From an uncultured Acidobacteriota bacterium (GTDB taxonomy: Bacteria; Acidobacteriota; UBA6911; RPQK01): DNA of 64,000 nucleotides. Below the pieces are notes generated by a model that worked only from the letters and a program-made list of their open reading frames with translations, made no database searches and had not been told where the DNA came from. Below, in pieces: positions 22,178 to 48,119 of the stretch. Positions within the stretch are counted from its first letter, which is position 1, and each line of letters begins with the position of its first letter. The translations under genes and the position numbers were made by a program. Where the stretch lies: the NCBI GenBank assembly GCA_963744645.1, contig CAVUUN010000014.1, forward strand, positions 450,110-514,109, in the 5' to 3' direction.

Positions 22178-24674
22178 TCAGAATAGCCTCTTCTGCAATT
22201 CCTCCATGACGTCCGCGGAGCTTCGGGCGCGACTCTTGCCGGAGAGGTCCATGTCCTTGCGCTCGAGCTTGACCAGAATCTCACGGGCACGCTCGAGAAC
22301 CGGGGATGGCATCCCGGCGAGCCGAGCCACTTCGATCCCGTAACTCTTGTTTGCAACCCCGGGAAGCACTTTGTGGAAGAAGATGATCTGGCGGCCGGAT
22401 TCCCTGATCGTCACGCAGTAGTTCTTGACACAGGAATACAGGCGGTCGAGCTTGGTCAATTCCTGGTAATGAGTCGCAAAGAGCGTCCGCGCCTTCCTCT
22501 GCGTTTCGGTGACCAGGAACTCGGCCACCGACCAGGCCAGCGACAGGCCGTCAAAAGTAGCGGTGCCCCGGCCCACTTCATCGAGCAGGATCAGGCTTCG
22601 ACTGGTGGCCGTGTTGAGGATATTCGCGGTTTCAATCATCTCGACCATGAAGGTGGAACGTCCGCGGGCGAGATTATCGCTCGCGCCCACCCGCGTGTAA
22701 ACCCTGTCAACCAGCCCGATGCGCGCCTCGTCGGCCGGCACGAGAGACCCCATCTGCGCCATGATGACGATCAAGGCGTTCTGGCGCAGGTACGTACTTT
22801 TGCCCCCCATGTTCGGGCCGGTCAGGATCAGCATCTGGTCCGTGGAGGTGTTGCAGAACAGGTCGTTCGGGACAAACGGCTCACCCCCCTGCAGTTCCAC
22901 GACCGGGTGGCGCCCGCCGCGAATCTGGATCTCCTCGCTCGAATCGAGGATCGGCCGGGCATAGCGGTTCCGGCGGCCCACTTCCGCGAGCGCCAGGAGG
23001 ACGTCCACCCGGGCGAGGAAGTGCGCGACTGACTGGATGCGTGCCGCCTGGCCGCCGACCTCCCGCCGAATCTTCAGGAAGAGATCCTTTTCGATCTCCA
23101 GGATCCGTTCCTCGGCGTTCAGCACCTGGTCCTCGTACTCCTTGAGCTCCGGAGTGATGAAACGCTCGGCGCCCACCAGCGTCTGCTTCCGGATGTAATC
23201 CTCCGGCACGGCGTGCAAATGCGACTTCGTCACCTCAATGAAATAGCCGAAAACCTTGTTGTACCGGACCTTGAGGGAAGGTATCCCGGTTCGCTGCCGC
23301 TCCTTGCTCTCGAGCGAGGCAATAAATGACTTGCCCGATCCGGAGATCTTGCGGAGCCGGTCCAACTCCTCGTCGTATCCCGCGCCGGATCATCCCCCCG
23401 TCATTGAGTGTCACCGGGGCATCTTCGTCGATCGATTGCTGCAGCAGACTGACAACGTCGGTCAACAGGTCCAGGGGCGTGGACAGCAGGCTGCTTTTGC
23501 AGTCGGCCAGGTGCGTCTGCAGCTCGGGCAGGGAGGCCAGCGAGTCGCGCAGGGCCAGCAGGTCGCGTGCATTGGCCGTTTCGAGGACCACCCGGCTCAG
23601 CAGTCTCTCCACGTCATGGATCGCTTTGAGGACTTTGCCAATTCGGTCCATTCGCACCAGCGAGCCCTTCAGCTCTTCAATGGAATCCAGCCGCTCGTTG
23701 ATCACCCGCACGTCCAGACTCGGTCGCAAAAGCCAGCTGCGCAGAAGCCGGGCACCCATGCCCGTCTTCGTCGAGTCGAGGACGGACAGCAGCGTCCACT
23801 GTCGGGAACCGTCGTTTGTCTTCAGGAGCTCCAGGTTGCGGACGGTCGCCTCATCGAGCTTCATGTAGTTGGACAACTCGAACAGCCTGACGGTCAGCAC
23901 GTGGCCCAGCTGCGAGCGCTGGGTCTGCTTGACGTAGTTCATGAGGGCGCCGGCCGCGCCGATGCCTGCCTGCTGCCCGTCCAGCCCGAATCCTTCCAGC
24001 GTGGAGACCTTGAAGTGGTCCAGGAGCAACCGCTGCGAGTAGTCGAGATTGAAGCTCCAATCCGGCTGGCCGGTCAGGACCGTGTTGGCGCGGAGGTCGG
24101 CCGGGTACCAGCCTTCAAAAGCCGTGCGATCACCGTCTGCCACGACGAGCTCGCGGGGATTGAAATGTGAAAGGACCTGGAGCATCTGCTCGCGGGCCTG
24201 GTCCCCAGCGAGCTCCGTGATCCAGAATTCTCCGGTCGAAACGTCCAGGAAGGAGGCGCCAACACGCTCGCTGCTCTCCAGAATGGCGCCGATGAAGTTG
24301 TTTTCCCGGGATTCGAGGAGGGCGTCTTCGACTGCCGTTCCCGGCGTCACGATCCGGGTGATCTCGCGGCGAACCAGTCCTTTCGCCTGTTTCGGGTCCT
24401 CCACCTGTTCGCAGATGGCGACCCGGTGTCCCTTCTTGATCAGTTTGCTCAGGTAGCCGTTGACGGCGTGGTAGGGCACCCCGCACATGGGGATCGGTTT
24501 ACCGCTTCGGTCCGCGTGCCGGGAGGTGAGGGTGATCTCAAGCTCCCGACTACCCGTCACGGCATCCTCGAAGAACATCTCGTAGAAGTCGCCCAGTCGG
24601 AACAACAGCAGGACATCCGGATTCTCGCGTTTGATCTCATGGTACTGCCGCATCATCGGCGTCAGGTTGTCCAT
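22178..24674 (-). pseudogene. mutS: DNA mismatch repair protein MutS, split by a +1 frameshift into an N-terminal part (23235-24674) and a C-terminal part (22178-23365)
   Basis: The N-terminal ORF carries mismatch-binding and connector domains. The C-terminal ORF carries the clamp and ATPase (GPNMGGKST). The frames diverge after DGGMIR, where GYDEELDRL continues in the +1 frame, next to a GGG run at ~23378-23380 (coding strand). Confidence 0.85.
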
Positions 24675-25219: not shown

Positions 25220-26530
25220 TCACTTCAAATCGGGAGTGGGAGACCGTCCCAGCGGCAGGCTGGCCGAGACGACGCCCCGGATGGTGCGGACGATGGTCCC
25301 CACCAGCGTCTGGTCGCTGACAATTTCCACGGTCCCTTCGGCGCTTTTACCCGAGAACTCTGACACGAGCTCGTCGATAAAAGAGGCCCTCTGCTCCCCC
25401 GGGGCCAGGACCACCTCCACCGTATGCTTCTTGAACAGGGGGAGGTAGAACGTGATGGAGACTTTCGCCTCATGATCAGAGACATTGGCCAGCGCCAGCG
25501 CGGTGTTGGTCTCCTCGGCCAGGTTTTTTTGAAAGATTCCGAAGAAGCGGTAGCCGGGTATCGCGCCCTGGATGCCCGTCTCCGAGACCGGTTTGCCCTC
25601 GGAGTCAAGGATGCGGTAGACGGCGGCGAGCTCCACCGGATAGTTCGAGGCGACACAGGCGTAGCCGCGGTCCAATTCAGAGACCGAGCCCGTGGTGCGG
25701 ACAATCTTCGACTGGACGTCTTCAAGCACGGAGTCGAAATGAGCGCCCTGTTGTCCGTCGAGGATGACGGGCAAGGGCGCGCCGGACGGGTCCCGAAACT
25801 CGAGCGAGAGCATGGCCACAGCATGGAGCGGCCACGAGTATCGGTTGGGTATGGCCGAACTGGTCATGCTCAGTTGGGTCTGAAGTGTCCTTTCTCCTTC
25901 GGCAAGCCGGCCGTGCGCGGCTTGGGCCACACATCGGCGAAAAGCAGGTGGATTAGTGAAACTGGCGTGGATCAGGAAGAGTGCCTCCGGCTCGTGAGCG
26001 TCTGAATACTCCACCTCAACACGGCTGATTGCGCGGCCTTCAAGGTCTTGCAGCAGAACCGGATTGAGTAGCGTATACCCCGGCAACAGACTAGTCGCCT
26101 CCTCTCCCAGCAGAACTCCATCCGAATTGAACAATCTTTCGGTAGCGGTGACTGCTGTGCTTGCAGCCAAGTGGAGTGAAAGTTGCCGGACGGGCTGGCT
26201 GAAATGAATGACGAGCGGTCCCGCGTCTTCCCCGTCCGGCGCGTCATTGAGAATGGCTGGAGCGTCTGTTTGGGGGCCCTCAGGCCAAACAAACACACTT
26301 CGGCTCCCGCTGATCGGTGTTTGCTCGGAGCGGTTGTCCAGCGTAATGCCCCAGTCGCCGAAGACCTGGCTGACATCTGAACCGGCAGGAAGCGGCGGGG
26401 GTACGAGCATCACCGCCTGCTCTGCAGACGGGTCGTGTTGTGAGAAGACTGCGGAGGCCGCAATTGTACCCGCTGCGGCCAGCAGGAAGCAGATCACAAA
26501 CCTCATCGCGGGTGTTGTCACTTTGCGCAT
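25220..26530 (-). CDS. hypothetical exported protein (signal peptide), no recognisable domain
   Basis: 436-aa ORF with an N-terminal hydrophobic signal (MRFVICFLLAAAGTIAASA). No family recognised by eye. Confidence 0.5.
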   Translation of the reverse strand: MRKVTTPAMRFVICFLLAAAGTIAASAVFSQHDPSAEQAVMLVPPPLPAGSDVSQVFGDWGITLDNRSEQTPISGSRSVFVWPEGPQTDAPAILNDAPDGEDAGPLVIHFSQPVRQLSLHLAASTAVTATERLFNSDGVLLGEEATSLLPGYTLLNPVLLQDLEGRAISRVEVEYSDAHEPEALFLIHASFTNPPAFRRCVAQAAHGRLAEGERTLQTQLSMTSSAIPNRYSWPLHAVAMLSLEFRDPSGAPLPVILDGQQGAHFDSVLEDVQSKIVRTTGSVSELDRGYACVASNYPVELAAVYRILDSEGKPVSETGIQGAIPGYRFFGIFQKNLAEETNTALALANVSDHEAKVSITFYLPLFKKHTVEVVLAPGEQRASFIDELVSEFSGKSAEGTVEIVSDQTLVGTIVRTIRGVVSASLPLGRSPTPDLK

Positions 26531-26960
26531 TCATCCTCCTGTCAAAGAGTGGTGCACCCTTGTCCCGCCTTTTGAAAAAGGGCAGTAAAGGTTGGGAAAA
26601 CCAGCCGGCTTACCTGACTGTCAACCGAAGTCATCGAAGACGTGAGTACTCGAACTTTCTGCCCCTCAGGATTGTAGCCGCATTGGCTCGATACGGTTCG
26701 TTCTCGTTACCAGTTGGCTGCGCTCTCAAAGTACACAGAAAAGCTTAGTTCTGCATAATGTTTTTGGTTATTCCAAAAAATCACCGGCAAACGCGGAAGG
26801 GATACGAACGAGCTCATGCATTTGCAGAGAGAACCGAAATAGCGGCGAATAATGGGAACAGTGTGGAATAGTGACGACAGTGATCTTGGCGGCGCCATTA
26901 GCGTTCGCGAGATCGGGCCTTGGTGGTGCATCGCGGTGCAGAATGGTGTAAGATGAGGGC

Positions 26961-27218
26961 ATGCCAAAATCAGAGAAGGTCGTTCGTCAGAGCGTATCCC
27001 TGCCACCCCGCATCGCGAGAGACGTGCGCACCATTGCGCGAACTCGGAATACGAGCGCCAACCGAGTTCTGGTGGAGTTGATCGAAACGGGGCTTCAATG
27101 CAGGGAGGCCGAAAAACAGCGCTTCTTTGGTCTTGCCGATCGACTCGGGCAGACAACCGATCCAAACGAGCGGCAGCGCATTAAAGAAGAACTCGCGCGC
27201 ATGACCTTCGGTGACTGA
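26961..27218 (+). CDS. ribbon-helix-helix (CopG/Arc-like) DNA-binding protein
   Basis: RHH pattern VSLPPRIARDVRTIARTRNTSANRVLVELIETGL. Sits downstream of an AT-rich patch (26700-26960). Confidence 0.55.
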   Translation: MPKSEKVVRQSVSLPPRIARDVRTIARTRNTSANRVLVELIETGLQCREAEKQRFFGLADRLGQTTDPNERQRIKEELARMTFGD

Positions 27219-27370
27219 TGCCCAAGATCCAATGGATCGGTCTTCCCCCTGCTCTTCGCCAGCACCTCTTCGACCGACTGGAGGAACGGCAGATATCGAT
27301 CGAGGACCTGTACAAGCTGAAAGTCTGGAGGGAATCGGAACCTGAGGCACCGGATGGGCCCTTGGTATAA
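27218..27370 (+). CDS. 50-aa ORF translationally coupled (ATGA overlap) to the RHH gene
   Basis: MPKIQWIGLPPALRQHLFDRLEERQISIEDLYKLKVWRESEPEAPDGPLV. Missing from the ORF track because it is under 60 aa. Translated by hand. Confidence 0.3.
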   Translation: MPKIQWIGLPPALRQHLFDRLEERQISIEDLYKLKVWRESEPEAPDGPLV

Positions 27371-27620
27371 GGACTTTGGTTCCTTCAAGATCTGCGGCGA
27401 GGGCAAATTCCCCAAGACCTTTCTGCTGAAAGGGCAAGCAGCGAAAGGAACGCCTCTTTGAGGCTGTGGAGTACTGACCAAGGCTCATATCAATCCTAAG
27501 CCAGTCGATACCGCGACCAGTGGCGGCGGGGCTTGCTCTCGGTCGGAACATGCCAGGGCGCAACACGAATAACCCGAGACAACGAGAGAAGCTGCCTGGA
27601 CACTCGCAAGTCCGGGTACA

Positions 27621-28928
27621 ATGTGCGGCGGAAAACCTGGAATGAGCATTTTCGCCACGCTGACCGCCCTTGGTGGAGCCACGCTTTGCTACGGACGGTT
27701 TTTAAGATCGCAGTTCTGGACCGACCAGGCCCGGGCCAGTTACGTCGAGCGGATGCTTGATCGAACGCTGCGCGATGCTGCCCGCATCCCTTTCTACCGG
27801 GACCGCCTCCGCAGCTGCCAGCCCGGGAATCTCCACGAAGCGCCGATCCTGGCTCGCAGCGACTTGCCGCTCCTTAACAACGAGGTGCGTCGGATGCACC
27901 CTGGCAGACGCCTCCAGGCCGCTCGATCATCCGGTTCGACCGGCATGCCGGTTGAAGTCCTTTTCGACACCCCGCACCAGGTTCACCGTTTTGCCGCCCG
28001 CGCGAGGTACCTTCGCGCGAATGGCTGGAGCCCGCTGAAGAAAAGTGCCTGGATCATCTCCCTGCCCGGGGCGACCCCCGACGGTCAGCTGGTCCGGGCG
28101 TTTCGATCCGTCGGCGTCGGCTTTCTCTCTGTCTTCACGCCGCTTGAAGAGCAACTCGCGTGGCTGCGTCGTTTTCGGCCCGAATACCTCTATACGTACC
28201 CATCTAACCTCGGCGGCCTGCTCGACCTTCTGGAGGAAGAGGGTGGGGAAGCACTCGGTCTGAAAGGATTGTTCTCCGGCGGCGAAATCCTGGACGATGC
28301 AACCCGGAAGCGCGCCCGGGAGATCCTCGGTATCCCGGTCGCCGACAACTACGGGACAACCGAGGTTTTCATCGCGTGGCAGTGCCCTGCCGGCGGCTAC
28401 CATATCAACAGCGAACATGTTCATGTGGAGGTCGTCGATCAGACGGGTCAGCCGGCCCGGGTCGGCGAGGTCGGGCGGGTCCTGGTGACTACCCTCAACA
28501 ACCGGCTGATGCCCCTGGTCCGTTACGAAATCGGGGACTATGCGCAGGTAACGGCTGAACGCTGCCCCTGCGGCCGCACCTTGCCCCTGCTGGGACGTGT
28601 TGTCGGCCGCAGCATAAACCTGTTTCGGTTGCCCTCGGGGCGCGTCATCACTCCCTGGGAACTGGTCGTCCGAATCAAATTCATGCCGGAGTTGAAGCAG
28701 TTTCAGGTTGTCCAGAAAGCCCTTGACCGATGCCTGCTTCGTTATGTATCAAACACCGGTCTGCTGAGTGCGCACAATCGATCGAGCATTGAGCGTGGCT
28801 TCGCGGATGTGCTGGGCCCCGAAGTACGGGTCGATTTCGAACGAGTTGAAAGGATCGAGAGAGCAGCGTCGGGGAAGTTCATGACGGCGTTCTCGGAAGT
28901 GAGCCGCGAGCCGTCCGAAACGCGGTGA
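27621..28928 (+). CDS. PaaK/CapK/F390-synthetase-family adenylate-forming enzyme (copy 1)
   Basis: SSGSTG adenylation motif and PaaK-like length and fold. The ATG at 27642 (MSIFATL) is an alternative start. Confidence 0.75.
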   Translation: MCGGKPGMSIFATLTALGGATLCYGRFLRSQFWTDQARASYVERMLDRTLRDAARIPFYRDRLRSCQPGNLHEAPILARSDLPLLNNEVRRMHPGRRLQAARSSGSTGMPVEVLFDTPHQVHRFAARARYLRANGWSPLKKSAWIISLPGATPDGQLVRAFRSVGVGFLSVFTPLEEQLAWLRRFRPEYLYTYPSNLGGLLDLLEEEGGEALGLKGLFSGGEILDDATRKRAREILGIPVADNYGTTEVFIAWQCPAGGYHINSEHVHVEVVDQTGQPARVGEVGRVLVTTLNNRLMPLVRYEIGDYAQVTAERCPCGRTLPLLGRVVGRSINLFRLPSGRVITPWELVVRIKFMPELKQFQVVQKALDRCLLRYVSNTGLLSAHNRSSIERGFADVLGPEVRVDFERVERIERAASGKFMTAFSEVSREPSETR

Positions 28929-30340
28929 CGGTCCCCGCCTGCGCTGGTCTCGAATTTGGGTCCGTTATGAGTGAACCGATTATTGAGAAAGCCAAGCCAG
29001 GGGATCTCGAGGCCATCCTTGAAGTGATGAAACCCTGGAACATGCATCATGTTCCCTCTCCCGAGATGGAGGAACTGGATCTCGAATGCTTTTATGTAGC
29101 CAGGATCGAAGGGCGAATCGTGGGCGCTTCCGGCTACAAGGTGCTCTCCCAGACGCGAGGGAAGACAACCCTACTGGGTGTCCTGCCCGAGCACTGCAAG
29201 GGCGGGCTCGGACGCCTGCTCCAGGATGTCCGCCTGGAGGCAATGCACCGAATCGGAGTCAAGAAGGTCATCACCAACGCCGATCGCGCGGAGACGATCG
29301 AATGGTACAAAAGGCGGTATGGTTACCGAGAGGTTGGCACGCTTCGCAAAGTGAGCTCCTTCGGTGACCCAGCCGCCGATCATTGGACGACGCTCGAACT
29401 GGACCTCGAGGCGTACTTCCGGAATATAGATCGCCGGCAAAGCGCAACCGAGTACGTCGCCCGCAACGAGCCGCATCCCCTCGCCCCTTACCCGCCGCTC
29501 GTGATCAATGTCTGTCTGACCGGCATGGTGCCGGAGAAAGCCACTGCGCCTTTTGTGCCGCTCCAGGTAGAAGAGATCGTGGGGGACGCGGTTCGAGTCT
29601 TTGATGCGGGCGCGAGAGTTGTCCACGTTCATGCCCGTGACGAGGCGGGCGCCCCCACCTGGGATGCGCGAATCTACGAACGAATTCTGACCGGCATCCG
29701 GCGGGAGCGGCCGGAGCTCGTCTGCTGCGTCTCGACCTCCGGGCGTTTGTGGTCGGATTTCGAGCGAAGGTCGGAAGTCCTGGATCTCACCGGCGCTGCC
29801 AAGCCCGACTTTGCCAGCCTGACACTCGGTTCCTTGAACTTCATGACCGGCCCAAGCGTGAGCTCCCCGGAAATGATTGAGCGGCTGGCCGAGAGGATGA
29901 AGGAAAGGCAGATCCTGCCGGAGTTGGAGGTGTTCGACCTGGGCATGATCGGAATAGCGAAATACCTGGAAAGGAAAGGTCTCATCGGCGGCCGGAAGTC
30001 TTTTAACCTGTTGCTCGGCAGTCTTGGAAGCGTTCCTGCCACGATTGGAAATCTGGCCGCCCTGGTTGCGGCGCTTCCGGATGACTCCTTCTGGTCGGCC
30101 GCGGGTATCGGCGTCTTTCAGCTGCCCATGAATGTCGCCGGCCTCATTGCAGGTGGTGGCGTGAGGATCGGGATCGAAGACGCACTCCACTACGATTACG
30201 CTCGGAAAAAGCCCGCCTCCAACCTCGACCTGGTGTGTCGAATGGTGCGTATCGCCTCCGAAGTTCAGCGGTCGATTGCGACACCTGAAGAGGCCCGAAG
30301 TCTTCTCGGCCTGGGCCGGCAACCGACGGTCGGAAGGTGA
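28925..30340 (+). CDS. fusion protein: N-terminal GNAT acetyltransferase domain plus C-terminal BKACE/DUF849 (3-keto-5-aminohexanoate-cleavage-enzyme-like) domain
   Basis: Residues ~15-165 read as GNAT (...RIVGASGYKV...GLGRLLQ...). Residues ~185-471 match the TIM-barrel BKACE family (PLVINVCLTGMVPEK...VHVHARD...LPELEVFDLGMIG...IGIEDALHYDYARK). The start overlaps the upstream stop. Confidence 0.6.
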   Translation: MTVPACAGLEFGSVMSEPIIEKAKPGDLEAILEVMKPWNMHHVPSPEMEELDLECFYVARIEGRIVGASGYKVLSQTRGKTTLLGVLPEHCKGGLGRLLQDVRLEAMHRIGVKKVITNADRAETIEWYKRRYGYREVGTLRKVSSFGDPAADHWTTLELDLEAYFRNIDRRQSATEYVARNEPHPLAPYPPLVINVCLTGMVPEKATAPFVPLQVEEIVGDAVRVFDAGARVVHVHARDEAGAPTWDARIYERILTGIRRERPELVCCVSTSGRLWSDFERRSEVLDLTGAAKPDFASLTLGSLNFMTGPSVSSPEMIERLAERMKERQILPELEVFDLGMIGIAKYLERKGLIGGRKSFNLLLGSLGSVPATIGNLAALVAALPDDSFWSAAGIGVFQLPMNVAGLIAGGGVRIGIEDALHYDYARKKPASNLDLVCRMVRIASEVQRSIATPEEARSLLGLGRQPTVGR

Positions 30341-30341: not shown

Positions 30342-31652
30342 ATGCAACCGCTGACTATCCTCGGCGGCGGTCCGGCGGGACTGGCTGTCGCTTACTATGC
30401 ACACCAGGCAGGAATCCCGTTCGTTCTCTACGAACGGTCAGAAAGCGTCGGGGGGCTCTGCCGCACCTTTCGCCTGGGGGAGCACGGATACGACTCCGGC
30501 GCCCACCGCTTTCACGATATCTATCCCGCGATCACCCGAGACGTGCGTCGCCTGCTGGAGCTGCATCCTGTCACTGCTCCCAGTCGCATCTGCAGCAGCG
30601 GGCAGTTTCTCCAGTTCCCGCCGACGCCGCTCAATCTTCTGTTCTCTTCCTCCCCTGCAGAGTGGGCTCGGATCGGCATAGGTCTTTGGCGCGGCCGGAG
30701 GCGGCAAGGGGGCGGGTCCAGCTTCCAGGATTTCGCCGTGTCCCGCTTCGGAGAGAGACTGGCGCGCCGATTCCTCCTGGATTATTCCGCCAAAGTCTGG
30801 GGTTTGCCTGCCGACCAGTTGTCCGTCGATGTTGCAACGCGCCGGCTGAACGGCCTGAATCTGCGAACCCTGGTTTCCGAACTTATTGCCCCGCGAAAGA
30901 GAGCGGGGAACTTGGACGGCCATTTTCTCTATCCGAAGAACGGGTTCGGAGAAATCGCGACGACCCTGGCCGCTGCTCTGCCGCCGGACAGTGTCAAAAC
31001 CGGTCAGGAAGTCACCCGAATCGAGTGCCAGGATGCGGCTGTCCGGCGAATTCATTTTGCCTCCGTTCCGCCGGCCGACGTCCCCGGCCGCATGGTCTCC
31101 ACGCTCCCGCTGAACCTGCTCATTGAGTTCCTTGGGGACGCTGTCTCCGAGACCGTCAGGGAGGCGGCCCGCGCCCTCCGGTTCCGGCACGTGCGGCTGA
31201 TTTTCCTGAGGCTGGGGAAGCCGAGGGTGTCGAACAATGCCTCGATCTACTTCCCGGATCCGAAGATGTGCGTTTCCCGGGTGTGCGAGCCGAAGAATCG
31301 ATCGGCGGCGCTCGCGCCGGCGCAGGAAACGTCGCTTGCGGTGGAAGTGCCCTGTTGCGAAGGAGAGGAATTGTACGTGCTGCCGAACGAAGAGCTGAAG
31401 GAACGGGTCGTATCCGAGGTGAGCGTCACCGGACTAATTCGCCCCTCGGAGGTTCTCGACTGGGCGCACCATTTTCTGGAGAATGCCTATCCGATCTACT
31501 CTCTGCACTACAGGCAACACCAAAAGGTGGTATTGGATGGCCTGGCCTGCCTGACCAATCTCACGACACTCGGCCGGAACGGCAAGTTTTTCTACAGCCA
31601 CTTCCACGATCAGCTGAACATGGGCAAGGAATTCGTGTCCGGATTGAGGTGA
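30342..31652 (+). CDS. FAD-dependent oxidoreductase, UDP-galactopyranose-mutase / amine-oxidase-like
   Basis: GGGPAGLAVAY dinucleotide-binding motif followed by GGLCRT...GAHRFH (compare UGM GPHIFH). An AGGTGA ribosome-binding site 6 nt upstream of the ATG at 30342. Confidence 0.7.
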   Translation: MQPLTILGGGPAGLAVAYYAHQAGIPFVLYERSESVGGLCRTFRLGEHGYDSGAHRFHDIYPAITRDVRRLLELHPVTAPSRICSSGQFLQFPPTPLNLLFSSSPAEWARIGIGLWRGRRRQGGGSSFQDFAVSRFGERLARRFLLDYSAKVWGLPADQLSVDVATRRLNGLNLRTLVSELIAPRKRAGNLDGHFLYPKNGFGEIATTLAAALPPDSVKTGQEVTRIECQDAAVRRIHFASVPPADVPGRMVSTLPLNLLIEFLGDAVSETVREAARALRFRHVRLIFLRLGKPRVSNNASIYFPDPKMCVSRVCEPKNRSAALAPAQETSLAVEVPCCEGEELYVLPNEELKERVVSEVSVTGLIRPSEVLDWAHHFLENAYPIYSLHYRQHQKVVLDGLACLTNLTTLGRNGKFFYSHFHDQLNMGKEFVSGLR

Positions 31653-31770: not shown

Positions 31771-31805
31771 ACCGGAAGCGACATCGTTTGGCCTGTCCAC
31801 CTCGC

Positions 31806-33272
31806 CTACCGCCTTCGGACAAAGCTGGGAAACTTGCCGGACTCGGCCGCGGGGATCGCTTCCACGATCTCCACTTCCACCCGGGTCCCCGGTCCCAATA
31901 CTCTGCCGGTAGCCTCGACAAAAGCCCTGGAAAGCTCGGATGGAGAGGCCCCGGCCGCCGGGACGATCTTCCAGAGCAGCAACCCGGGAGGTGTATAGAC
32001 GATCTGAGCCCGGACGGTGAGCCCGATTTGCGCCGCCAGCTGGTGACGAAGCGTCAGCGCGGAAATCACCGTCCCGTCCGCGCGCGGGATGATCTGGCTG
32101 ACCCGTCCCTGCAATTCCCGGAGGACCGGCAGGGAACGGCCGCATCCGCACGGTTCGGTCGCAATGACACCCAAGTCCCCGAGCCGGTAGTTGAGCAATA
32201 CCATCGCCCGGTTGTGGAGATTGGACACGACCAGCTCTCCGACTTCTCCCGGTTTCACGGCCCTTTGGAGCGCGGACGTCTCGTCCGCCCGGTCGGACGA
32301 CGCTTCGGGAGCCCATCCTGCCCGCCCGCCCGCGAACTCCAGCGACTCGTCTCGGGTCGGATTGCGACTCTGCCGCAGTGCGGCGCCTATGCCCGGGTCG
32401 ATCAGACGAACGGCACACAGGTCTACGTTCAGATGAAATCCGCGGCGCCGTTCGCATTGAAACCCCAGTCGACCGGTTTCGGTGGTTTGATACGTCGAGT
32501 AGACAGTGCACCCTTGTTCCTCCATCGTCCGGCGCACCTCGGCCGAGAGAACATCGCCTCCATAGACCCAGACCCGCGGCAGGAAGATTCTCTTGCCGCT
32601 GTCGGAAATTGTCCTGAAGAGAACCTCTGCGAAGGAACCGTAGGAGAACACAATCTCCGGACGAACCTCGTTGATGCGCTGTGCGATTTCGTCGATCGGG
32701 GTATCGGGCGGCAGCTCAATCCGGTGAATGGCCCGCTGGGGCGCGAACATATGCGCTTCTACAAACCGTCTCACGCGCCCGGCGCCGTAGCCCATGATGT
32801 GGAGCTGCCTTTGCCCCCAGTTTTTGCCCGCGATCGTGGCCAGAATCACCCGGTCGCGCTCGGCGTGGGCAACCTTCGCGAGCACCGCCGAGTGATCCCA
32901 GTAGACCCGCAGTGCGAAACCCTGGGACGAACCGGATGTCTTGAGGCAGAGACGCCTGCTGTCCGGGTACAGGGAAGAACAGAACGTTTCTGGATCCTGC
33001 GCCACGTCGGACAGATCGATCAGTGGCAGCTTGGCGAGGTCGTCCGCTGTCCTGAAGTCCGAAGGTCGCAGTCCCCTCTCAGCCATTGCATTCCGATAGA
33101 ACGGGACCGTCTCCCAAGCGTGGCGGATGATTCTCCGCAACCGCCATCGCTGCAGGCGCTCGATCGTTTCCGGCTTTAGAAAGGGAACGCGCCGCTCGAC
33201 CAATGCGTAGGCGCCTACCCAGGCGGTGTTGCCGGCGCGCACCAGCGCAGAGACGGGGCCAGACTCGGACAT
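31806..33272 (-). CDS. PaaK/CapK/F390-synthetase-family adenylate-forming enzyme (copy 2)
   Basis: TSGSSQG adenylation motif and PaaK-like architecture. A divergent paralogue of 27621-28928. Confidence 0.75.
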   Translation of the reverse strand: MSESGPVSALVRAGNTAWVGAYALVERRVPFLKPETIERLQRWRLRRIIRHAWETVPFYRNAMAERGLRPSDFRTADDLAKLPLIDLSDVAQDPETFCSSLYPDSRRLCLKTSGSSQGFALRVYWDHSAVLAKVAHAERDRVILATIAGKNWGQRQLHIMGYGAGRVRRFVEAHMFAPQRAIHRIELPPDTPIDEIAQRINEVRPEIVFSYGSFAEVLFRTISDSGKRIFLPRVWVYGGDVLSAEVRRTMEEQGCTVYSTYQTTETGRLGFQCERRRGFHLNVDLCAVRLIDPGIGAALRQSRNPTRDESLEFAGGRAGWAPEASSDRADETSALQRAVKPGEVGELVVSNLHNRAMVLLNYRLGDLGVIATEPCGCGRSLPVLRELQGRVSQIIPRADGTVISALTLRHQLAAQIGLTVRAQIVYTPPGLLLWKIVPAAGASPSELSRAFVEATGRVLGPGTRVEVEIVEAIPAAESGKFPSFVRRR

Positions 33273-33380: not shown

Positions 33381-34663
33381 TTGAAGCTCACACTGGATCC
33401 GGCAACTTCGCGCGCTTGCGCCCCAGCCACCAAAGGACTGGTTGCAATCGCCGGGGTTTATTTCATTTCCCTCTTCCTGCAGCTGCCGATATCGGACGCC
33501 CTGCTGTCCGGGATCCCGCATTGGAGGATCGGCAAGGGTGCGGTTGCCCCACCCATGGTACTCTCCGGCGATTCCCCCCATTACCTGGTCCTTGTCAACA
33601 GCATCATCGAGGATGGGGATCTTGATCTGGCCAACAATTACAGCCAGGCCGCGGCTGGCGGCTGGCAAGCAGGGGCGCGTTTCCGGGGAGTGGCCCTGGA
33701 CCACCATACCGAGGTCGATAGCGAGGGAAGGGAACGGTCCCTGCATTCGATTTTCCTTCCATTGCTCCTGTCGCTCATCGCCTGGCCATTTTCCGGCACT
33801 CGATGGGTTGAGCCCGTCTGTATCTGCCTGACGATGGGGGCGACCGTCCTCGCTCTCTGGTTGTTCGCGAGAAGAAGCGGGAAGGCTTTTGGCTGGGTGG
33901 TCGTACTTGCCGTCGCGACGCCTCTCTGGTGTTACTCCAGGGACATCTGGACCGAGCCATGGCTGACCGCCGCCTGGATTGGTCTTCTTTTCGTGCAGAG
34001 TCTTCCGGTCCTCTTCGCCGTGGCACTTGCAGGGACACTGATCAAGTACAACTTCGTCCTGGTCCCGCTCAGCATGGCAGTCGTTTTCTGGCTGAGACGC
34101 GACCGGCGCCGGGCTTCGTGCTTGCCGGAGCGGGTATCCTCGGAGTATTGATCGCCGTGGCCGCGGTTCAGTACTTGTTCCGCGACGTGGACCATTTCAA
34201 CCTCTTTCACCTCGGCGGTCATTACCACGGCGCCGACGCCACGCTGCGTCAGAGAATCGTGCCCTTGAAATTTCTTCAACCGACGGGGCTGGTTGGCATG
34301 CTTTTTGACCCGCAAGCAGGTCTCCTGCCGTTCTTCCCGTTTCTGGCCTGGGGCCTCTGGCAAATCCGAAAGGGCGGCTATCTGTTCGTTCCCGTCATTG
34401 TCTTCTTCCTTGTTCTTGGCGCCTACCCGGGATGGACTGGAGGAGCCGGATTTTCGTCGCGGTACCTGGTGCCGGTCCTTCCGGCCCTGGTCATCGCCGT
34501 CGCTGATGCAAAACCCCGCAGCTACTTCTTCGGGCTGGCATTGCTTTACGGTGCATTCTGGGGTGCGCTCGCCGGCATAGGGCCGGCGTATGTCTACGAA
34601 CGCACGCCTGTCCAGATCACTGCCGCTATCCTCAGGCGGCTGTCTGCGCTGGCTGGTATCTGA
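33381..34663 (+). pseudogene. polytopic membrane protein (possible GT-C-fold glycosyltransferase or glycan polymerase-like), interrupted by a frameshift or split into two genes
   Basis: The TM-rich ORF 33381-34151 ends in RRDRRRAS... The TM-rich sequence resumes in another frame (ORF 33929-34663, ...PAPGFVLAGAGILGVLIAVA...). The switch lies at ~34090-34115. Confidence 0.45.
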
Positions 34664-34707: not shown

Positions 34708-36558
34708 GTGTGTGGAATCGCAGGAATTGTTCATTGTCACCTGCCTCCTGATCAGTTGAGGGCCGCGCTTGTCCGCATGGAGCAGTCACTTATCCACCGG
34801 GGGCCCGACGAAGGCAACGTCGTGGTATTCCCCGATGGCTCGGGCGGATTTGCTGCCCGTCGCCTCAGTCTCCTCGACCTGCGGAATGGAAGCCAACCGA
34901 TACCCAACGAGGACGGCACGGTCCACGTCCTGCACAACGGCGAGATTTACAATCACCGGGGTCTCAGGGAGGAGCTCCAGGCGCGAGGCCATTGCCTCCG
35001 GAGCCGGACCGACAGCGAGGTTATCGCGCATCTCTACGAAGACGACGGTGTTGAGTGCCTCCATCGCCTGCATGGGATGTTCGCGCTGGCCTTGTACGAT
35101 GCTCGAAAGCGGCAGCTTCTACTCGCCAGGGACGGGCCCGGCATGAAGCCGCTGTACTTTGCCAACACCCGAGCAGGATTTCTCTTCGCCTCGGAGGCCA
35201 GGGCCCTGTTTGCCTCTGGCCTGATCCGTCCTGAACCGGAGCTCCCTGCCATAGACACCTACCTTGCTATCGGTTACGTGCCCGCCCCGGCGTGCGCTTT
35301 TCGAAATGTCGGGAAGCTTAGGGCCGGCCATTACCTGCTGGTAGAAAAGGAAAAAATGCGGGACGCGGCCTTCTCGCGCTACGAGTATCGCCAGCCGAGT
35401 CCTGCGAAGAGCGACGCGGAGTACGGGGCCGAGCTGGAGGCGCTTCTTTCCGGCGCGGTTCGCTCTCATCTTGCGGCCGATGTCCCCGTGGGGGCCCTGT
35501 TAAGCGGAGGTTGGGACTCGTCTCTGATAGCGACCCTGGCAGCCCGGAGCATGGGAGCACCTCTGAAGACTTTCTCCATTGTCTTTCCTGAGGACCCTGA
35601 GGCGGACGAAAGCCGCTTCTCGCGCGCGATGGCGGAATCGCTCGGCAGCGATCACCACGAGATCGAGTACCGAAATTCCCTGCTGCCGGCACTTATCCCG
35701 AAAATGTCCCGTGACCTGGAGGAACCGTGTGCAAATGTTCCAACGGGGGTCGTTTCTCTGCTTGCTTCCCTGGCCGGCGCCCACGTGAAGTCCGTAGTCA
35801 GCGGCGAAGGAGCCGATGAATTGTTTGGCGGCTACAAATTCTTTCGCATTCGTTCCCCGTACCTCGCTCGAGCCGTTCTCCCCAGGTCTCTCGCCCGTTT
35901 CGCGGCGACCTGGCTCCCGCATCCGCTCGTCCGGTGCGCCTTGAGAGTCGCGGCGGCCCCGGACGAAAGGACTGGAGATCCGGAGTGGTTTCGAATGTTC
36001 TCTCCCGAGGAGAAACGGATGGTCCTGAAACCGGAGTTTCAGGTGGACGGACCGGATGTCTCCCCCACGCTGGTCGAACGCGAAACCCTCGTAACCTGCG
36101 TCGACAGGCTCCAGCGCCGCCTGGCCTTCGATCTTACCGGTCGTTTGGCCGACGGCATTCTCTTCATGGCCGACAAGGTCGCGATGTCGCACTCTCTCGA
36201 AGTGCGGATGCCTTTCCTGGACCGTTCTGTCGTGGAATTTGCCATGCGGCTCCCGTCCCATCTGAAGGTGAACGGGAGGCAAGGGAAGGTCATCCTGAGA
36301 CCACTCGCGAGCCGGCTCCTGCCGCCCGCTATCGCCTCGCGGCGCAAGAAAGGACTCGCCTATCCGGACCGAGCCTGGTCCAAGCCACCGCTTGACCGCT
36401 ACGCCCGCGACCTGCTCCTCGGAGGCGGCCGTAACGGCCCATTCAATACCCGGTACCTGGAACAGAACCTTCCGCGCTGGCAGCGGGCCGCTTGGAAGGG
36501 AGAACGACGAATCGCCGGGCTGGTTTTCCTCCAGAGCTGGTGGAACGAGTTCTGCTGA
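34708..36558 (+). CDS. asparagine synthetase-family glutamine amidotransferase (AsnB/WbpS/beta-lactam-synthetase-like)
   Basis: MCGIAG N-terminal nucleophile, SGGWDSS PP-loop, 616 aa. Confidence 0.85.
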   Translation: MCGIAGIVHCHLPPDQLRAALVRMEQSLIHRGPDEGNVVVFPDGSGGFAARRLSLLDLRNGSQPIPNEDGTVHVLHNGEIYNHRGLREELQARGHCLRSRTDSEVIAHLYEDDGVECLHRLHGMFALALYDARKRQLLLARDGPGMKPLYFANTRAGFLFASEARALFASGLIRPEPELPAIDTYLAIGYVPAPACAFRNVGKLRAGHYLLVEKEKMRDAAFSRYEYRQPSPAKSDAEYGAELEALLSGAVRSHLAADVPVGALLSGGWDSSLIATLAARSMGAPLKTFSIVFPEDPEADESRFSRAMAESLGSDHHEIEYRNSLLPALIPKMSRDLEEPCANVPTGVVSLLASLAGAHVKSVVSGEGADELFGGYKFFRIRSPYLARAVLPRSLARFAATWLPHPLVRCALRVAAAPDERTGDPEWFRMFSPEEKRMVLKPEFQVDGPDVSPTLVERETLVTCVDRLQRRLAFDLTGRLADGILFMADKVAMSHSLEVRMPFLDRSVVEFAMRLPSHLKVNGRQGKVILRPLASRLLPPAIASRRKKGLAYPDRAWSKPPLDRYARDLLLGGGRNGPFNTRYLEQNLPRWQRAAWKGERRIAGLVFLQSWWNEFC

Positions 36559-38161: not shown

Positions 38162-39727
38162 GTGAGGGGTACCGGGAATTCGGAAGAGGTAGACCTGACA
38201 ATGGATATAGGTGTGCTGTCTGGTCAGCTGGAAGGCGTCATTTTGGACCGTTGCGACGGAGTTCGCATCGACGTCACCGGGAACTGTAATTTGCGGTGTC
38301 CCTACTGCATCAACGATTTCACCCAGATCGACGGCAACGTTCTGATGACCGAGGAGGTGTTTGACCGAAGCGTCCAACTCCTGCCTCTGCTGAGACCCGG
38401 CGGGCATCTGCTCTTCTCGTGCTATTTCGAACCGACGCTGCACCCGCGGTTTCTCGACTTTCTTGAGAGCGTGCCCGAGCAGTACCGGCAGCAGGCCGGT
38501 TTCACGACGAACCTTGCCCGACGGCTGCCCGACACCTTTTTCGCGCACCTCGGCCGGCTTGGTCTCCGGCACGTGAACGTCTCGCTCGACTCGCTTACCC
38601 CAGCCGTTTTCGAGGAGATGCGGAATCCTGCCCGTTTCGGCGTCTTTCGGGATAACCTCGAACGGCTGGTCGAAGCCCTCGGGAGTGGGGGGCAGGGAAC
38701 CGAGCTCCACATAATAACAATGGTCAGCAAACGGAACCTGGGGGAGATTCCGGAGCTCGTGGACCATTGCGCGACACTCTACAAGGCTCGGCGCCATGAA
38801 ATCCGCGGGATCTGGATGACGGAGGAAATTGAGCGACGGCCATGGATCGTCCAGCAAGCGCCGTCGCTGGACGAACTTCTGGACCTGCGTCGACGCCTTA
38901 TGAGTGGCCCGCGCACGCATGTCGATTTCGTCGTGGATCTGCCGGAAAACCCGGAGGCATTCAGTCCTTTCCCCCATCGCCGCCCGGACGAACCCACCCG
39001 TGACGCCGGTCTGTCGGTTCCCCGGTCCAATGCGACCAGTATTCAAGTGGAAGGGGGACCCACCCCCGGAAACCGCCTCCTGGACGTCCTGCAGGGTCCA
39101 CCGGTGACGCCGGTTCTGCAGATCAGTTCGGACGGCTCCATTCGCTTCCTGATCGCCGGCCGTGACCCGGTGCTCGACCTGAAGAACCATCCTCTGCCGT
39201 TGGACCCGGTGAGCAGGCTGCTCAGGCGCCAGAACGTCGATTTCGGACGTGCTCGCCTGCTCGATGAGGCGAGGCGGGAAGTCCTCGGCCTGAGGCGCGT
39301 GATCAAGGTCAACGAGTGGCTCGCCGAAAACCGGGTTGACCTGGACGGACGATCGACGCATTTCGTTGGACGAATGGATGACGTCAAGATTGTGGAAGCG
39401 AGCGCCGGGCTTGCGGGCGGATACCGGGCGTCCGGCTGGGCGAGGAAGCCGGACGGAACTGCACCGGCCGACGAAGTCCTGCTCATACTCCGGAAGGGGA
39501 ATCGCCGCTGGGCGGTTGGCTCGGGAACTCCCGACCGACAGAGATTCGACGTGGCTGATAACTTCTCCGAATCGCGCCTTCTATACACCGGGTGGGAGGC
39601 ACGACTGCATCTGGATGCCCTCGCGGACTCCCTTCCGGCCCGCTTTAGTCTAGCCGCTTATGTCCTGGATGCCGAGAAACGGATTGCCTACAAACTCGAT
39701 GGGGAGCGTGATGTTGAACTCGACTGA
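38162..39727 (+). CDS. radical SAM protein with a long uncharacterised C-terminal region
   Basis: CNLRCPYC cluster near the N-terminus, 521 aa. No SPASM-type cysteine pattern is obvious in the C-terminal half. Confidence 0.7.
   Translation: MRGTGNSEEVDLTMDIGVLSGQLEGVILDRCDGVRIDVTGNCNLRCPYCINDFTQIDGNVLMTEEVFDRSVQLLPLLRPGGHLLFSCYFEPTLHPRFLDFLESVPEQYRQQAGFTTNLARRLPDTFFAHLGRLGLRHVNVSLDSLTPAVFEEMRNPARFGVFRDNLERLVEALGSGGQGTELHIITMVSKRNLGEIPELVDHCATLYKARRHEIRGIWMTEEIERRPWIVQQAPSLDELLDLRRRLMSGPRTHVDFVVDLPENPEAFSPFPHRRPDEPTRDAGLSVPRSNATSIQVEGGPTPGNRLLDVLQGPPVTPVLQISSDGSIRFLIAGRDPVLDLKNHPLPLDPVSRLLRRQNVDFGRARLLDEARREVLGLRRVIKVNEWLAENRVDLDGRSTHFVGRMDDVKIVEASAGLAGGYRASGWARKPDGTAPADEVLLILRKGNRRWAVGSGTPDRQRFDVADNFSESRLLYTGWEARLHLDALADSLPARFSLAAYVLDAEKRIAYKLDGERDVELD

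Positions 39728-46593: not shown

Positions 46594-48119
<1,526 letters not shown>

What the first reader, a model, noticed from the sequence alone, without database searches (positions are those of the whole stretch)
28925..30340. GNAT acetyltransferase fused to a BKACE (DUF849) beta-keto-acid cleavage domain
The N-terminal ~160 aa read as a GNAT N-acetyltransferase. The remaining ~300 aa match the BKACE TIM-barrel family, the Kce-type 3-keto-5-aminohexanoate cleavage enzymes. BKACE enzymes condense or cleave beta-keto acids using acetyl-CoA, and GNATs transfer acyl groups from acyl-CoA. A covalent fusion implies channelling of an acyl-CoA between the two activities. I do not recognise this architecture. 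The gene is translationally coupled to the upstream PaaK-like gene and 2 nt from the downstream flavoprotein gene.
Basis: partly seen in the sequence, partly recalled or inferred. Interest (0 to 1): 0.7.

Follow-up and report, generated by a model that had tools for sequence, protein, structure and literature searches.

The report
Widespread uncharacterised GNAT–BKACE fusion enzyme
The gene is a real single protein that joins an acyl-transferring (GNAT) domain to a beta-keto-acid cleavage (BKACE) domain; the pairing is common in environmental bacteria, is annotated only generically, has no known function, and usually sits beside enzymes that form amide bonds.

Summary
One ORF encodes an N-terminal GNAT domain and a full-length C-terminal BKACE (DUF849) TIM barrel. 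The real start is ATG 28967 (457 aa), not GTG 28925, so the claimed overlap with the upstream ligase gene is not supported. The 1-nt junction with the downstream flavoprotein gene is real.

The fusion is neither an assembly artefact nor rare. More than 120 protein clusters from at least seven phyla are collinear full-length fusions at 59-94% identity. Databases call them "GNAT family N-acetyltransferase" or "DUF849/GNAT". I found no paper on this architecture.

The two domains are clearly linked in function:
- they occur fused in both orders;
- they occur as overlapping co-directional genes;
- they occur as adjacent genes on opposite strands.

The same narrow GNAT subfamily is also fused to CapK-like ligases and to ATP-grasp ligases. 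An ATP-grasp or CapK-like ligase lies within 1.5 kb in 28 of 66 loci.

The BKACE zinc site and catalytic Glu, Arg and Asp are intact. Kce's amine-binding Glu14 is Val, and Tyr145 is an invariant Phe. The protein is therefore not Kce.

Best reading, inferred and not shown: a bifunctional enzyme in an N-acyl amino-acid or peptide pathway, in which BKACE supplies or remodels the acyl-CoA used by the GNAT. Substrates are unknown.

The parts
28967..30340 (+). GNAT-BKACE fusion gene (457 aa; stop TGA 30338-30340)
   Evidence: ORF. Pfam and NCBIfam domains. Start codon fixed by homologue alignment, the L010 indel and the public gene call. AF2 model with pLDDT 89.
28967..29410 (+). GNAT domain (aa 1-148). 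It has a pyrophosphate-loop G80-x-G82, N104/D106, and W113-Y114 at the usual general-acid Tyr position. The subfamily signature is NMHH-x-PSPEM, KTTLL, TNADR, DHWTTLE.
   Evidence: (best PDB sequence match YpeA, E 8e-7).
29411..29488 (+). Linker: a long helix (aa 147-167) followed by a lower-confidence stretch that leads into the conserved N(D/E)PHPLAPYPPL segment opening the barrel.
   Evidence: Secondary structure and pLDDT of the model. The split-gene homologues break exactly here, at aa about 151-160.
29489..30316 (+). BKACE (DUF849) TIM-barrel domain (aa 175-450). Zn ligands are H220, H222 and E404. Catalytic residues are E321, R400, D405 and S258. Val188 replaces Kce Glu14, and Phe323 replaces Kce Tyr145.
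   Evidence: Residue mapping on Kce 2y7d. Invariant columns of A1. Fold match.
27621..28928 (+). CapK/PaaK-like adenylate-forming ligase. It is in the same operon and is the most conserved partner in this clade.
   Evidence: AMP-binding; no equivalog cut-off reached. Orthologues lie next to the fusion in L001, L006, L008, L011 and L014 at 54-67% identity. A relative is fused to the same GNAT subfamily in P0123.
30342..31652 (+). FAD/NAD(P)-binding flavoprotein of the amine-oxidase superfamily (PRK07208-like). Its ATG lies 1 nt after the fusion's stop.
   Evidence: It is conserved beside the fusion in L010 and L011, and nearby in L001 and L014.
31806..33272 (-). Second, divergent CapK-like ligase paralogue on the opposite strand. 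The overlapping + strand ORF 31788-33179 looks like a shadow ORF.
   Evidence: Translation. Weak AMP-binding hit. A 66%-identical orthologue holds the same position in L006.
33381..34663 (+). Polytopic membrane protein of unknown family, conserved in L006 and L011. In this window it is split by a frameshift near 34112-34124.
34708..36558 (+). Glutamine-dependent asparagine-synthase-family amidotransferase. It may belong to the same pathway.
   Evidence: Asn_synthase-family genes recur beside the fusion elsewhere: 3 of 127 immediate neighbours, and in the operon of the reversed fusion in L091.

Best explanation
The gene encodes a bifunctional enzyme in which both domains are catalytically competent and act in one small-molecule pathway.

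The BKACE domain is a Zn2+-dependent TIM barrel. It reacts a beta-keto acid with acetyl-CoA in a Claisen-type exchange that gives acetoacetate and a new acyl-CoA. The fused GNAT domain then transfers an acyl group from CoA onto the amino group of an amino acid or peptide acceptor. The acyl group is most economically the one just made by the BKACE domain. Capture would work by proximity, not through a tunnel.

ATP-dependent carboxylate-activating ligases encoded alongside then join the N-acylated product to a further amine by an amide bond. In this window these are the CapK-like ligase and perhaps the AsnB-like amidotransferase. Elsewhere they are RimK-like or cyanophycin-synthetase/Ngg-like ATP-grasp enzymes. 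The logic is that of an N-acyl amino acid or N-acyl peptide, as in NAGGN or NAAG. The product might be an osmolyte or a cell-surface decoration.

Shown: the fusion is real; the catalytic residues are conserved; the domains are linked to each other and to the ligases. Inferred: the direction of the BKACE reaction, the hand-off of the acyl-CoA, and the nature of the acceptor and the product.
For: 1. Integrity. BKACE Zn ligands H220, H222 and E404, together with E321, R400, D405 and S258, align with Kce H46, H48, E230, E143, R226, D231 and S82. They are invariant in 30 sequences from many phyla. The GNAT keeps G80-x-G82, N104 and Y114. Both domains are under strong constraint, with 71% mean column identity across phyla.
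2. Rosetta-stone evidence. GNAT-BKACE is the window type. BKACE-GNAT occurs in reversed order in P0135 and P0167, at 45-47% identity in both domains. Separate overlapping genes occur in L078 and L085. Adjacent genes on opposite strands occur in L063 and L068-L071.
3. The GNAT is a narrow subfamily, with 171 clusters among 1.84 billion representatives. Members are also fused to a CapK-like ligase (P0123), to TupA-like and RimK-like ATP-grasp enzymes (P0131, P0146, P0181, P0254) and to a PanE-like reductase (P0170). The signature motifs are kept in all these architectures.
4. Neighbours. 28 of 66 loci have an ATP-grasp ligase (19) or a CapK-like ligase (9) within 1.5 kb, often with 4-nt overlaps. 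In L090 the ligase-GNAT fusion lies 7 kb from a stand-alone BKACE of the same subfamily.
5. Precedent. NCBIfam NF052389 describes a BKACE fused at its N-terminus to an enzyme that acts on its acyl-CoA product (3-aminobutyryl-CoA ammonia-lyase + Kce).
Against: - No substrate is known for either domain, and no biochemical or genetic data exist.
- Phe323 replaces Kce Tyr145. That Tyr is thought to contact the CoA sulfur in canonical BKACEs. A Phe occupies the position in BsfD, which does not perform the retro-Claisen thiolysis (bioRxiv 10.64898/2026.01.15.699783). The uncharacterised BKACE 3no5 also has Phe there.
- The model's pTM of 0.63, set against high pLDDT, means the relative domain orientation is not confidently predicted. 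No statement about facing active sites can be made.
- About half of the loci show no ligase nearby. In flavobacterial loci the gene stands alone between housekeeping genes.
- The BKACE reaction is measurably reversible (PMC11961710), so its direction in vivo is open.
Confidence: 0.4

Rival explanations
1. Sequential action without acyl-CoA hand-off. The GNAT uses ordinary acetyl-CoA to N-acetylate an amino group on the BKACE substrate or product, or on the ligase's product. Both domains simply share acetyl-CoA and one pathway intermediate.
For: The closest structural and sequence relatives of the GNAT are acetyl-CoA-using N-alpha or amino-acid acetyltransferases: YpeA, Ard1, RimI and ArgA. The same GNAT subfamily works with ATP-grasp or CapK-like partners in fusions that lack any BKACE, so it cannot depend absolutely on a BKACE-made donor.
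Against: This reading does not explain why GNAT and BKACE were fused at least twice, in both orders. Kce's amine-binding Glu14 is replaced by Val or Ile, which argues against an amino-bearing beta-keto acid bound the way Kce binds its substrate.
Confidence: 0.25
2. Biosynthetic (reverse) BKACE. The PaaK/CapK-like ligase makes an acyl-CoA. The BKACE domain condenses it with acetoacetate to give a two-carbon-extended beta-keto acid plus acetyl-CoA. The fused GNAT consumes that acetyl-CoA and so pulls the equilibrium.
For: The reverse BKACE reaction has been measured in vitro (PMC11961710). The upstream gene belongs to the PaaK/F390-synthetase-like branch, some members of which are CoA ligases. 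An acyl-CoA dehydrogenase follows the fusion in L001.
Against: ATP-grasp partners do not make CoA esters, and they are the commonest partners (19 loci). CapK-type enzymes are generally regarded as amide- or ester-forming rather than CoA ligases (my own knowledge). There is no evidence for an acetoacetate supply.
Confidence: 0.12
3. Non-canonical, BsfD-like chemistry. The barrel C-acetylates a beta-keto acid and the adduct decarboxylates to a 1,3-diketone instead of being thiolysed. The GNAT carries out a separate N-acylation.
For: Phe323 is invariant at the Kce Tyr145 position. BsfD has Phe at the same position and makes 2,4-dioxopentylphosphonate (bioRxiv 10.64898/2026.01.15.699783).
Against: The authors of that paper could not show that Tyr/Phe controls the outcome. 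The fusion's barrel matches Kce (159 bits) much better than BsfD 9zsc (98 bits). I did not check whether BsfD's loop insertion and its Arg91 are present here.
Confidence: 0.1
4. Artefact: two genes merged by a frameshift or a missed stop, or a degenerate GNAT domain with no catalytic role.
For: This window does contain two apparent frameshifts in other genes: MutS and the membrane protein.
Against: More than 120 independent clusters from different phyla and assemblies show the same collinear fusion. 530 of 600 metagenome candidates are relatives. The GNAT motifs are invariant.
Confidence: 0.01

Closest known systems
[quoted passage not shown]
   Same: Same TIM-barrel fold (TM 0.93, 34% identity). 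Same Zn ligands and the same catalytic Glu, Arg, Asp and Ser.
   Different: Scores below the NCBIfam equivalog cut-off (238.7 against 382). Glu14 is Val and Tyr145 is Phe. There is no lysine-fermentation gene context. It carries an N-terminal GNAT domain that Kce lacks.
Bifunctional 3-aminobutyryl-CoA ammonia-lyase/Kce (NCBIfam NF052389, Lys_KAL_CLE)
   Same: The same layout: an N-terminal domain of about 170 aa that handles a CoA thioester, fused to a C-terminal BKACE barrel (profile positions 169-436 match). It is a precedent for fusing a BKACE to the enzyme that uses its acyl-CoA product.
   Different: The N-terminal domain here is a GNAT, not a Kal lyase. The score is 122.5 bits against a cut-off of 725.
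BsfD of flavophos biosynthesis (PDB 9ZSC and others), a biosynthetic, non-canonical DUF849 enzyme
   Same: A DUF849 barrel used in biosynthesis rather than catabolism. Phe at the Kce Tyr145 position.
   Different: Weaker sequence match than to Kce. No phosphonate genes here. BsfD has no GNAT domain.
Ngg/AsnO system for N-acetylglutaminylglutamine amide (TIGR03103 GNAT+ATP-grasp; TIGR03104 amidotransferase)
   Same: The same pathway logic is suggested by context: a GNAT, an ATP-grasp peptide ligase and an Asn-synthase-type amidotransferase. The CphA-like neighbours hit the ATP-grasp part of TIGR03103 at 83-140 bits. The window's AsnB-like protein hits TIGR03104 at 317 bits.
   Different: No score reaches a cut-off. 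Ngg has no BKACE. This window has a CapK-like ligase rather than an ATP-grasp enzyme.
Small GNATs: YpeA (2PDO), RimI (5ISV), Ard1 (4PV6), ArgA (5YGE)
   Same: Fold and acetyl-CoA-binding motifs.
   Different: Only 15-20% identity. The fusion's GNAT belongs to a distinct, narrow subfamily with its own signature motifs.

Membership tests
BKACE / DUF849 (Pfam PF05853) | Full-length match to the family profile above the gathering score | tested here: met
   261.3 bits against 24.8, profile positions 1-274 of 274.
BKACE / DUF849 (Pfam PF05853) | (beta/alpha)8 barrel superposable on solved BKACEs | tested here: met
   AF2 model against 2y7f, 3no5, 3fa5 and 3chv: TM 0.92-0.94, rmsd 1.4-1.9 A.
BKACE / DUF849 (Pfam PF05853) | Zn2+ site (His-x-His + Glu) and catalytic Glu143, Arg226, Asp231 (Kce numbering) | tested here: met
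   H220, H222, E404, E321, R400 and D405 align with these residues and are invariant in A1.
BKACE / DUF849 (Pfam PF05853) | Tyr contacting the CoA sulfur (Kce Tyr145, PdKce Tyr173) | tested here: not met
   Phe323, invariant in 30 of 30 sequences. The role of this Tyr is stated to be unclear in bioRxiv 10.64898/2026.01.15.699783.
BKACE / DUF849 (Pfam PF05853) | Acetyl-CoA-dependent cleavage of a beta-keto acid to acetoacetate + acyl-CoA | not testable with these tools
   Needs an enzyme assay.
Kce sensu stricto (NCBIfam NF052387, lysine fermentation) | Score at or above the equivalog cut-off | tested here: not met
   238.7 bits against 382.
Kce sensu stricto (NCBIfam NF052387, lysine fermentation) | Glu14 binding the substrate's 5-ammonium group | tested here: not met
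   Val188 in the window. The position is Val or Ile in the family (GM[VI]PT).
Kce sensu stricto (NCBIfam NF052387, lysine fermentation) | Lysine-fermentation gene neighbourhood (kamA, kamDE, kdd, kal) | tested here: not met
   None among the window neighbours or among 127 immediate neighbours in 80 loci.
GNAT superfamily (Pfam PF00583 / PF13508) | Profile match above the gathering score, and GNAT fold | tested here: met
   27.7 bits against 20.7, and 27.5 against 27. Foldseek matches to Ard1, RimI and ArgA at TM about 0.75.
GNAT superfamily (Pfam PF00583 / PF13508) | Acetyl-CoA pyrophosphate-binding loop (Q/R-x-x-G-x-G/A) and conserved Tyr in helix 4 | tested here: met
   G80-x-G82 is conserved although the first position of the motif is variable. 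N104 is invariant and Y114 is conserved in at least 90% of sequences. The region aligns with YpeA RGRGIA. A catalytic role for Y114 is inferred.
GNAT superfamily (Pfam PF00583 / PF13508) | Acyl transfer from acyl-CoA to an amine | not testable with these tools
   Needs an assay. Donor and acceptor are unknown.
NAGGN synthesis system (TIGR03103 Ngg + TIGR03104 AsnO) | GNAT fused to an ATP-grasp domain, plus a dedicated amidotransferase above the cut-offs | tested here: not met
   There is no ATP-grasp gene in the window operon. The AsnB-like protein scores 317.5 against 570. Neighbouring ATP-grasp proteins in other loci score 83-140 against 569.
Bifunctional Kal-Kce (NF052389) | N-terminal 3-aminobutyryl-CoA ammonia-lyase domain and a score above the cut-off | tested here: not met
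   122.5 bits against 725. Only the BKACE part (profile 169-436) matches.

The most novel reading that the evidence does not exclude
The GNAT subfamily defined here is the hub of a modular, phylum-spanning pathway that has not been described. A BKACE works biosynthetically to convert acetyl-CoA plus a beta-keto acid into a non-standard acyl-CoA donor. The dedicated GNAT places that acyl group on an amino acid. Interchangeable ATP-dependent ligases (CapK-like, RimK-like, cyanophycin-synthetase/Ngg-like, AsnB-like) extend the product into a new class of N-acyl peptide or amide, which could be a compatible solute or a cell-envelope decoration. This would be the first BKACE shown to feed an acyltransferase, and a new route to N-acyl amino acids.
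Probability: 0.3. Interest if true: 0.7.

Novelty: new variant of a known kind. Interest (0 to 1): 0.5.

Why it matters
BKACE (DUF849) enzymes are known almost entirely as catabolic enzymes that split beta-keto acids. Only a handful of physiological roles have been established. A conserved fusion to an acyltransferase that recurs in both domain orders and in split form, and that is tied to amide-forming ligases, points to a biosynthetic use of BKACE chemistry. It also points to an unknown metabolite made by many uncultured Acidobacteriota, Planctomycetota, Chlorobiaceae, Bacteroidota and Proteobacteria.

The family is compact and highly conserved. It comes with clear partners, which makes it directly testable by expressing two or three genes. 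At present every member carries the uninformative name 'GNAT family N-acetyltransferase'.

Tried and rejected
The metagenome scan with alignment A1 gave the usable set.
- The first neighbour clustering used single linkage and merged FadD/MenE-like ligases with cyanophycin-synthetase-like ATP-grasp proteins into one 'AMP-binding' cluster. NCBIfam corrected this and the counts were redone.
- I briefly considered that the 660-aa neighbours might be acetoacetyl-CoA synthetases recycling the BKACE product. They are CphA/Ngg-like ATP-grasp proteins instead.
- Literature searches for BKACE+GNAT, DUF849+acetyltransferase+fusion, Kce+ATP-grasp, and Kce+N-acetyltransferase+BGC each returned nothing. The NetSyn BKACE paper does not mention an acetyltransferase.
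- The afdb50 fold library was unavailable. UniProt-level annotation and cultured hosts could therefore not be listed.
- Rfam on the 1.1-kb region upstream of the operon found nothing. The promoter and terminator scan was at chance level.
- Model coordinates and PAE are not exposed, so whether the two active sites face each other could not be tested.
- The flavobacterial neighbours aat, mazG and aroA were set aside as lineage synteny, not functional partners.
Full report
**1. What is in the sequence**

An open reading frame runs from 28925 to 30340 on the + strand. Pfam finds a full-length BKACE/DUF849 domain (261 bits, profile 1-274 of 274). It also finds an N-terminal GNAT domain that passes the gathering score of two GNAT models. 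An AlphaFold2 model built on 30 homologues has mean pLDDT 89.2 and shows two compact domains joined by a long helix.

In a Foldseek search of the PDB, the C-terminal domain matches Kce (2y7f; TM 0.93, 34% identity). The N-terminal domain matches small GNATs (Ard1, RimI, ArgA; TM about 0.75). No solved chain covers both domains.

**2. Gene boundaries**

The true start is ATG 28967, giving 457 aa.
- Homologues start at the equivalent Met.
- The 94%-identical locus L010 has a 19-nt indel between the ligase stop and this ATG. That indel cannot be coding.
- The 457-aa product is exactly the one on record in public gene calls, on a 1.75-Mb contig.

The gene therefore lies 38 nt downstream of the CapK/PaaK-like ligase gene (stop at 28928). 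It does not overlap that gene. The downstream flavoprotein ATG (30342) follows the fusion's TGA by 1 nt.

**3. Is the fusion real and is it rare?**

It is real and it is common. A search of 5.8 billion protein clusters returned 2070 hits. The best 120 all cover at least 94% of the query except one 346-aa partial (P0046). They are 435-487 aa long and 59-94% identical. All but P0026 have precomputed Pfam hits to both GNAT and BKACE families. They come from MAGs labelled Acidobacteriota, Planctomycetota, Deltaproteobacteria, Sumerlaeota, Bacteroidales, Chlorobiaceae and Gammaproteobacteria. Their names are 'GNAT family N-acetyltransferase' (NCBI) or 'DUF849 family / N-acetylglutamate synthase-like GNAT' (JGI).

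In a metagenome scan, 530 of 600 candidate stretches encode relatives. Thirty sequences from these phyla have 71% mean column identity, and both domains are conserved.

It is not met for function. Full-text searches found no paper that links BKACE/DUF849 with a GNAT or an ATP-grasp enzyme. The NetSyn re-analysis of BKACE contexts does not mention an acetyltransferase.

**4. Catalytic competence**

I mapped the protein on Kce (2y7d; chain numbering is native + 6).

| Kce residue | Role | Window residue |
|---|---|---|
| H46, H48, E230 | Zn ligands | H220, H222, E404 |
| E143 | catalytic base | E321 |
| R226 | active site | R400 |
| D231 | active site | D405 |
| S82 | active site | S258 |

All of these are invariant in alignment A1.

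Two positions differ. Kce Glu14, which binds the substrate's ammonium group, is Val188 here and Val or Ile across the family. Kce Tyr145 is an invariant Phe323. That Tyr is thought to contact the CoA sulfur in canonical BKACEs. It is Phe in BsfD, which C-acetylates and decarboxylates instead of cleaving. The authors could not prove that the residue is responsible (bioRxiv 10.64898/2026.01.15.699783). The uncharacterised BKACE 3no5 also has Phe at this position.

The protein scores below every NCBIfam equivalog cut-off: Kce 238.7 against 382, 3-oxoadipate:acetyl-CoA acetyltransferase 199.6 against 350, and Kal-Kce 122.5 against 725. It is a BKACE-family member but not Kce.

The GNAT keeps the pyrophosphate loop G80-x-G82, N104, and Y114 at the usual general-acid position. 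Its best PDB sequence match is YpeA (E 8e-7).

**5. Evidence that the two domains work together**

- Reversed-order fusions (BKACE-GNAT) exist in P0135 and P0167. P0135 is 45% identical to the window protein in the barrel and 47% in the GNAT.
- In L078 and L085 the two parts are separate genes with their own stop and start codons, overlapping by 8 and 23 nt. L074 shows the same break point.
- In L063 and L068-L071 a stand-alone BKACE (67% identity) lies next to a stand-alone GNAT (38-40% identity) on the opposite strand.

Fusion in both orders together with split forms is classic Rosetta-stone evidence for a functional link.

**6. The GNAT is a narrow subfamily and a hub**

A phmmer search with the 165-aa GNAT domain read all 1.84 billion representatives. 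It found only 171 clusters at E ≤ 1e-3 and 114 at E ≤ 1e-10. Classification of the best 150 gave:
- 11 GNAT-BKACE and 6 BKACE-GNAT;
- a CapK-like ligase-GNAT fusion (P0123; the ligase part is 30% identical to the window's upstream ligase);
- a TupA-like ATP-grasp-GNAT fusion (P0131);
- RimK-like ATP-grasp fusions in both orders (P0146, P0181, P0254);
- a PanE/ApbA reductase-GNAT fusion (P0170);
- many stand-alone proteins of about 150 aa.

The signature motifs are NMHH-x-PSPEM, KTTLL, TN(A/T)DRPETI-x-WY and D-x-WT-x-LE. They are retained whatever the partner. They therefore belong to the GNAT's own function, probably acceptor binding, and not to a BKACE interface.

In the P0123 locus (L090), a stand-alone BKACE of the same subfamily lies 7 kb away. 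It is 50% identical and also has Phe at the Tyr145 position.

**7. Genomic context**

In this window the order is: CapK-like ligase, fusion, flavoprotein (amine-oxidase superfamily, PRK07208-like), a second CapK-like ligase on the minus strand, a polytopic membrane protein, then an AsnB-family amidotransferase. The nearest relatives keep ligase-fusion-flavoprotein-membrane protein (L011, 79% identity) or ligase-fusion-ligase2-membrane protein (L006). Deltaproteobacterial loci add a PLP-dependent decarboxylase and an acyl-CoA dehydrogenase.

A Pfam census of 127 immediate neighbours (within 400 nt) across the fetched loci gave:

| Pfam family | Neighbours |
|---|---|
| AMP-binding | 15 |
| RimK ATP-grasp (plus other ATP-grasp models) | 14 |
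| BAHD transferase | 4 |
| Asn_synthase | 3 |
| 2OG-Fe(II) oxygenase | 3 |
| Mur ligase | 2 |

The neighbours of 580-711 aa resemble the N and ATP-grasp (G) domains of cyanophycin synthetase, and the ATP-grasp part of the NAGGN synthetase Ngg.

After de-duplication, 28 of 66 loci with at least 1.5 kb of flank carry an ATP-grasp ligase (19) or a CapK-like ligase (9) within 1.5 kb. These are often arranged ATP-grasp-fusion-ATP-grasp with 4-nt overlaps. The reversed fusion in L091 ends an operon that reads amino-acid permease, PGA_cap, Asn-synthase-like, unknown.

The common theme is ATP-dependent activation of a carboxylate followed by amide formation. About half of the loci show no such partner. 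In flavobacterial loci the gene sits alone between aat and mazG/aroA, which I treat as lineage synteny.

**8. Mechanism**

Established BKACE chemistry is: beta-keto acid + acetyl-CoA gives acetoacetate + a shortened acyl-CoA. The enzymes are Zn-dependent tetramers. In BKACE15 a single entry channel is fully occupied by acetyl-CoA. Acetoacetate inhibits the enzyme, and the reverse reaction is measurable (PMC11961710; bioRxiv 10.64898/2026.01.15.699783).

GNATs move an acyl group from CoA to an amine. NCBIfam NF052389 shows that a BKACE can be fused at its N-terminus to the enzyme that uses its acyl-CoA product.

The most economical model follows from this. The barrel makes a non-standard acyl-CoA. 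The GNAT, held nearby in the tetramer, puts that acyl group on an amino acid or peptide. Partner ligases then extend or attach the N-acylated acid. This is the logic of NAGGN (Ngg + AsnO) or NAAG. I give it 0.4.

The rivals are:
- plain N-acetylation of a pathway intermediate (0.25);
- a condensing BKACE fed by a CoA ligase, with the GNAT as an acetyl-CoA sink (0.12);
- BsfD-like diketone formation (0.1);
- artefact or a dead GNAT domain (0.01).

None of the substrates is known. The model's pTM of 0.63 means the domain orientation is not reliably predicted. 'Active sites facing each other' therefore remains untested.

**9. Verdict**

The domain calls and the functional coupling are right. The rarity, the 'Kce-type' label and the upstream translational coupling are not. 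Channelling is plausible but untested.

This is a new, uncharacterised variant of known enzyme kinds. It is abundant in public data under a generic name. It has an unusually clear set of Rosetta-stone and neighbourhood clues that make it experimentally tractable. Interest is moderate (0.5).

Noticed in passing
window 22178-24674 (-): MutS is split into two overlapping ORFs in different frames. 23235-24674 carries domains I-III and 22178-23365 carries domains IV-V. This is a frameshift, either a pseudogene or an assembly or sequencing error.
   Followed up: partly
window 33381-34663 (+), junction near 34112-34124: The conserved membrane protein is a single 425-aa ORF in L006 but aligns to the window in two frames. 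This is a second apparent frameshift in the same 64 kb, which suggests indel errors in the assembly.
   Followed up: yes
window 46595-51591 (+): A complete rRNA operon: 16S at 46595-48115, 23S at 48346-51309 and 5S at 51475-51591. ARAGORN finds no tRNA gene in the 230-nt 16S-23S spacer or anywhere else in the window. The operon explains the ORF-poor region with strong GC skew.
   Followed up: yes
window 26531-27620: A stretch of about 1.1 kb upstream of the ligase-fusion operon has lower G+C and only unconvincing ORFs. There is no Rfam match at E ≤ 1, and promoter and terminator patterns are at chance level.
   Followed up: partly
window 31788-33179 (+) versus 31806-33272 (-): Two long ORFs overlap almost completely on opposite strands. 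The minus-strand ORF is a CapK-like ligase paralogue with a 66%-identical orthologue in L006. The plus-strand ORF is Arg/Pro-rich and looks like a shadow ORF.
   Followed up: partly
window 38162-39727 (+) and 39660-42293 (+): A radical-SAM protein and an 877-aa M14 zinc carboxypeptidase lie downstream of the cluster. A B12-binding radical-SAM gene is also near the fusion in L006, and two M14 peptidases flank the fusion in L005. They may be further pathway members or a coincidence.
   Followed up: no
window 25220-26530 (-): A 436-aa protein with an N-terminal hydrophobic, signal-like segment has no Pfam or NCBIfam match. It lies between mutS and the operon.
   Followed up: no
L072, L076, L077, L079 (for example L079 11266-12120): In the more distant fusion clade (43-47% identity), a 284-aa protein with no Pfam match overlaps or directly follows the 3' end of the fusion gene. 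FadD-like ligases and a histidinol-phosphate-aminotransferase-like gene lie nearby in some of these loci. A BAHD-type acyltransferase sits 49 nt upstream of the fusion in related loci of the same clade (L073, L081, L083, L084). This is probably a different pathway variant.
   Followed up: partly
L059 4665-5714 and L060 3083-4132: Two contigs carry a version of the fusion in which GNAT residues of about 58-142 are missing while the BKACE part stays 66% identical. This is a natural GNAT-deleted variant or a decaying copy.
   Followed up: no
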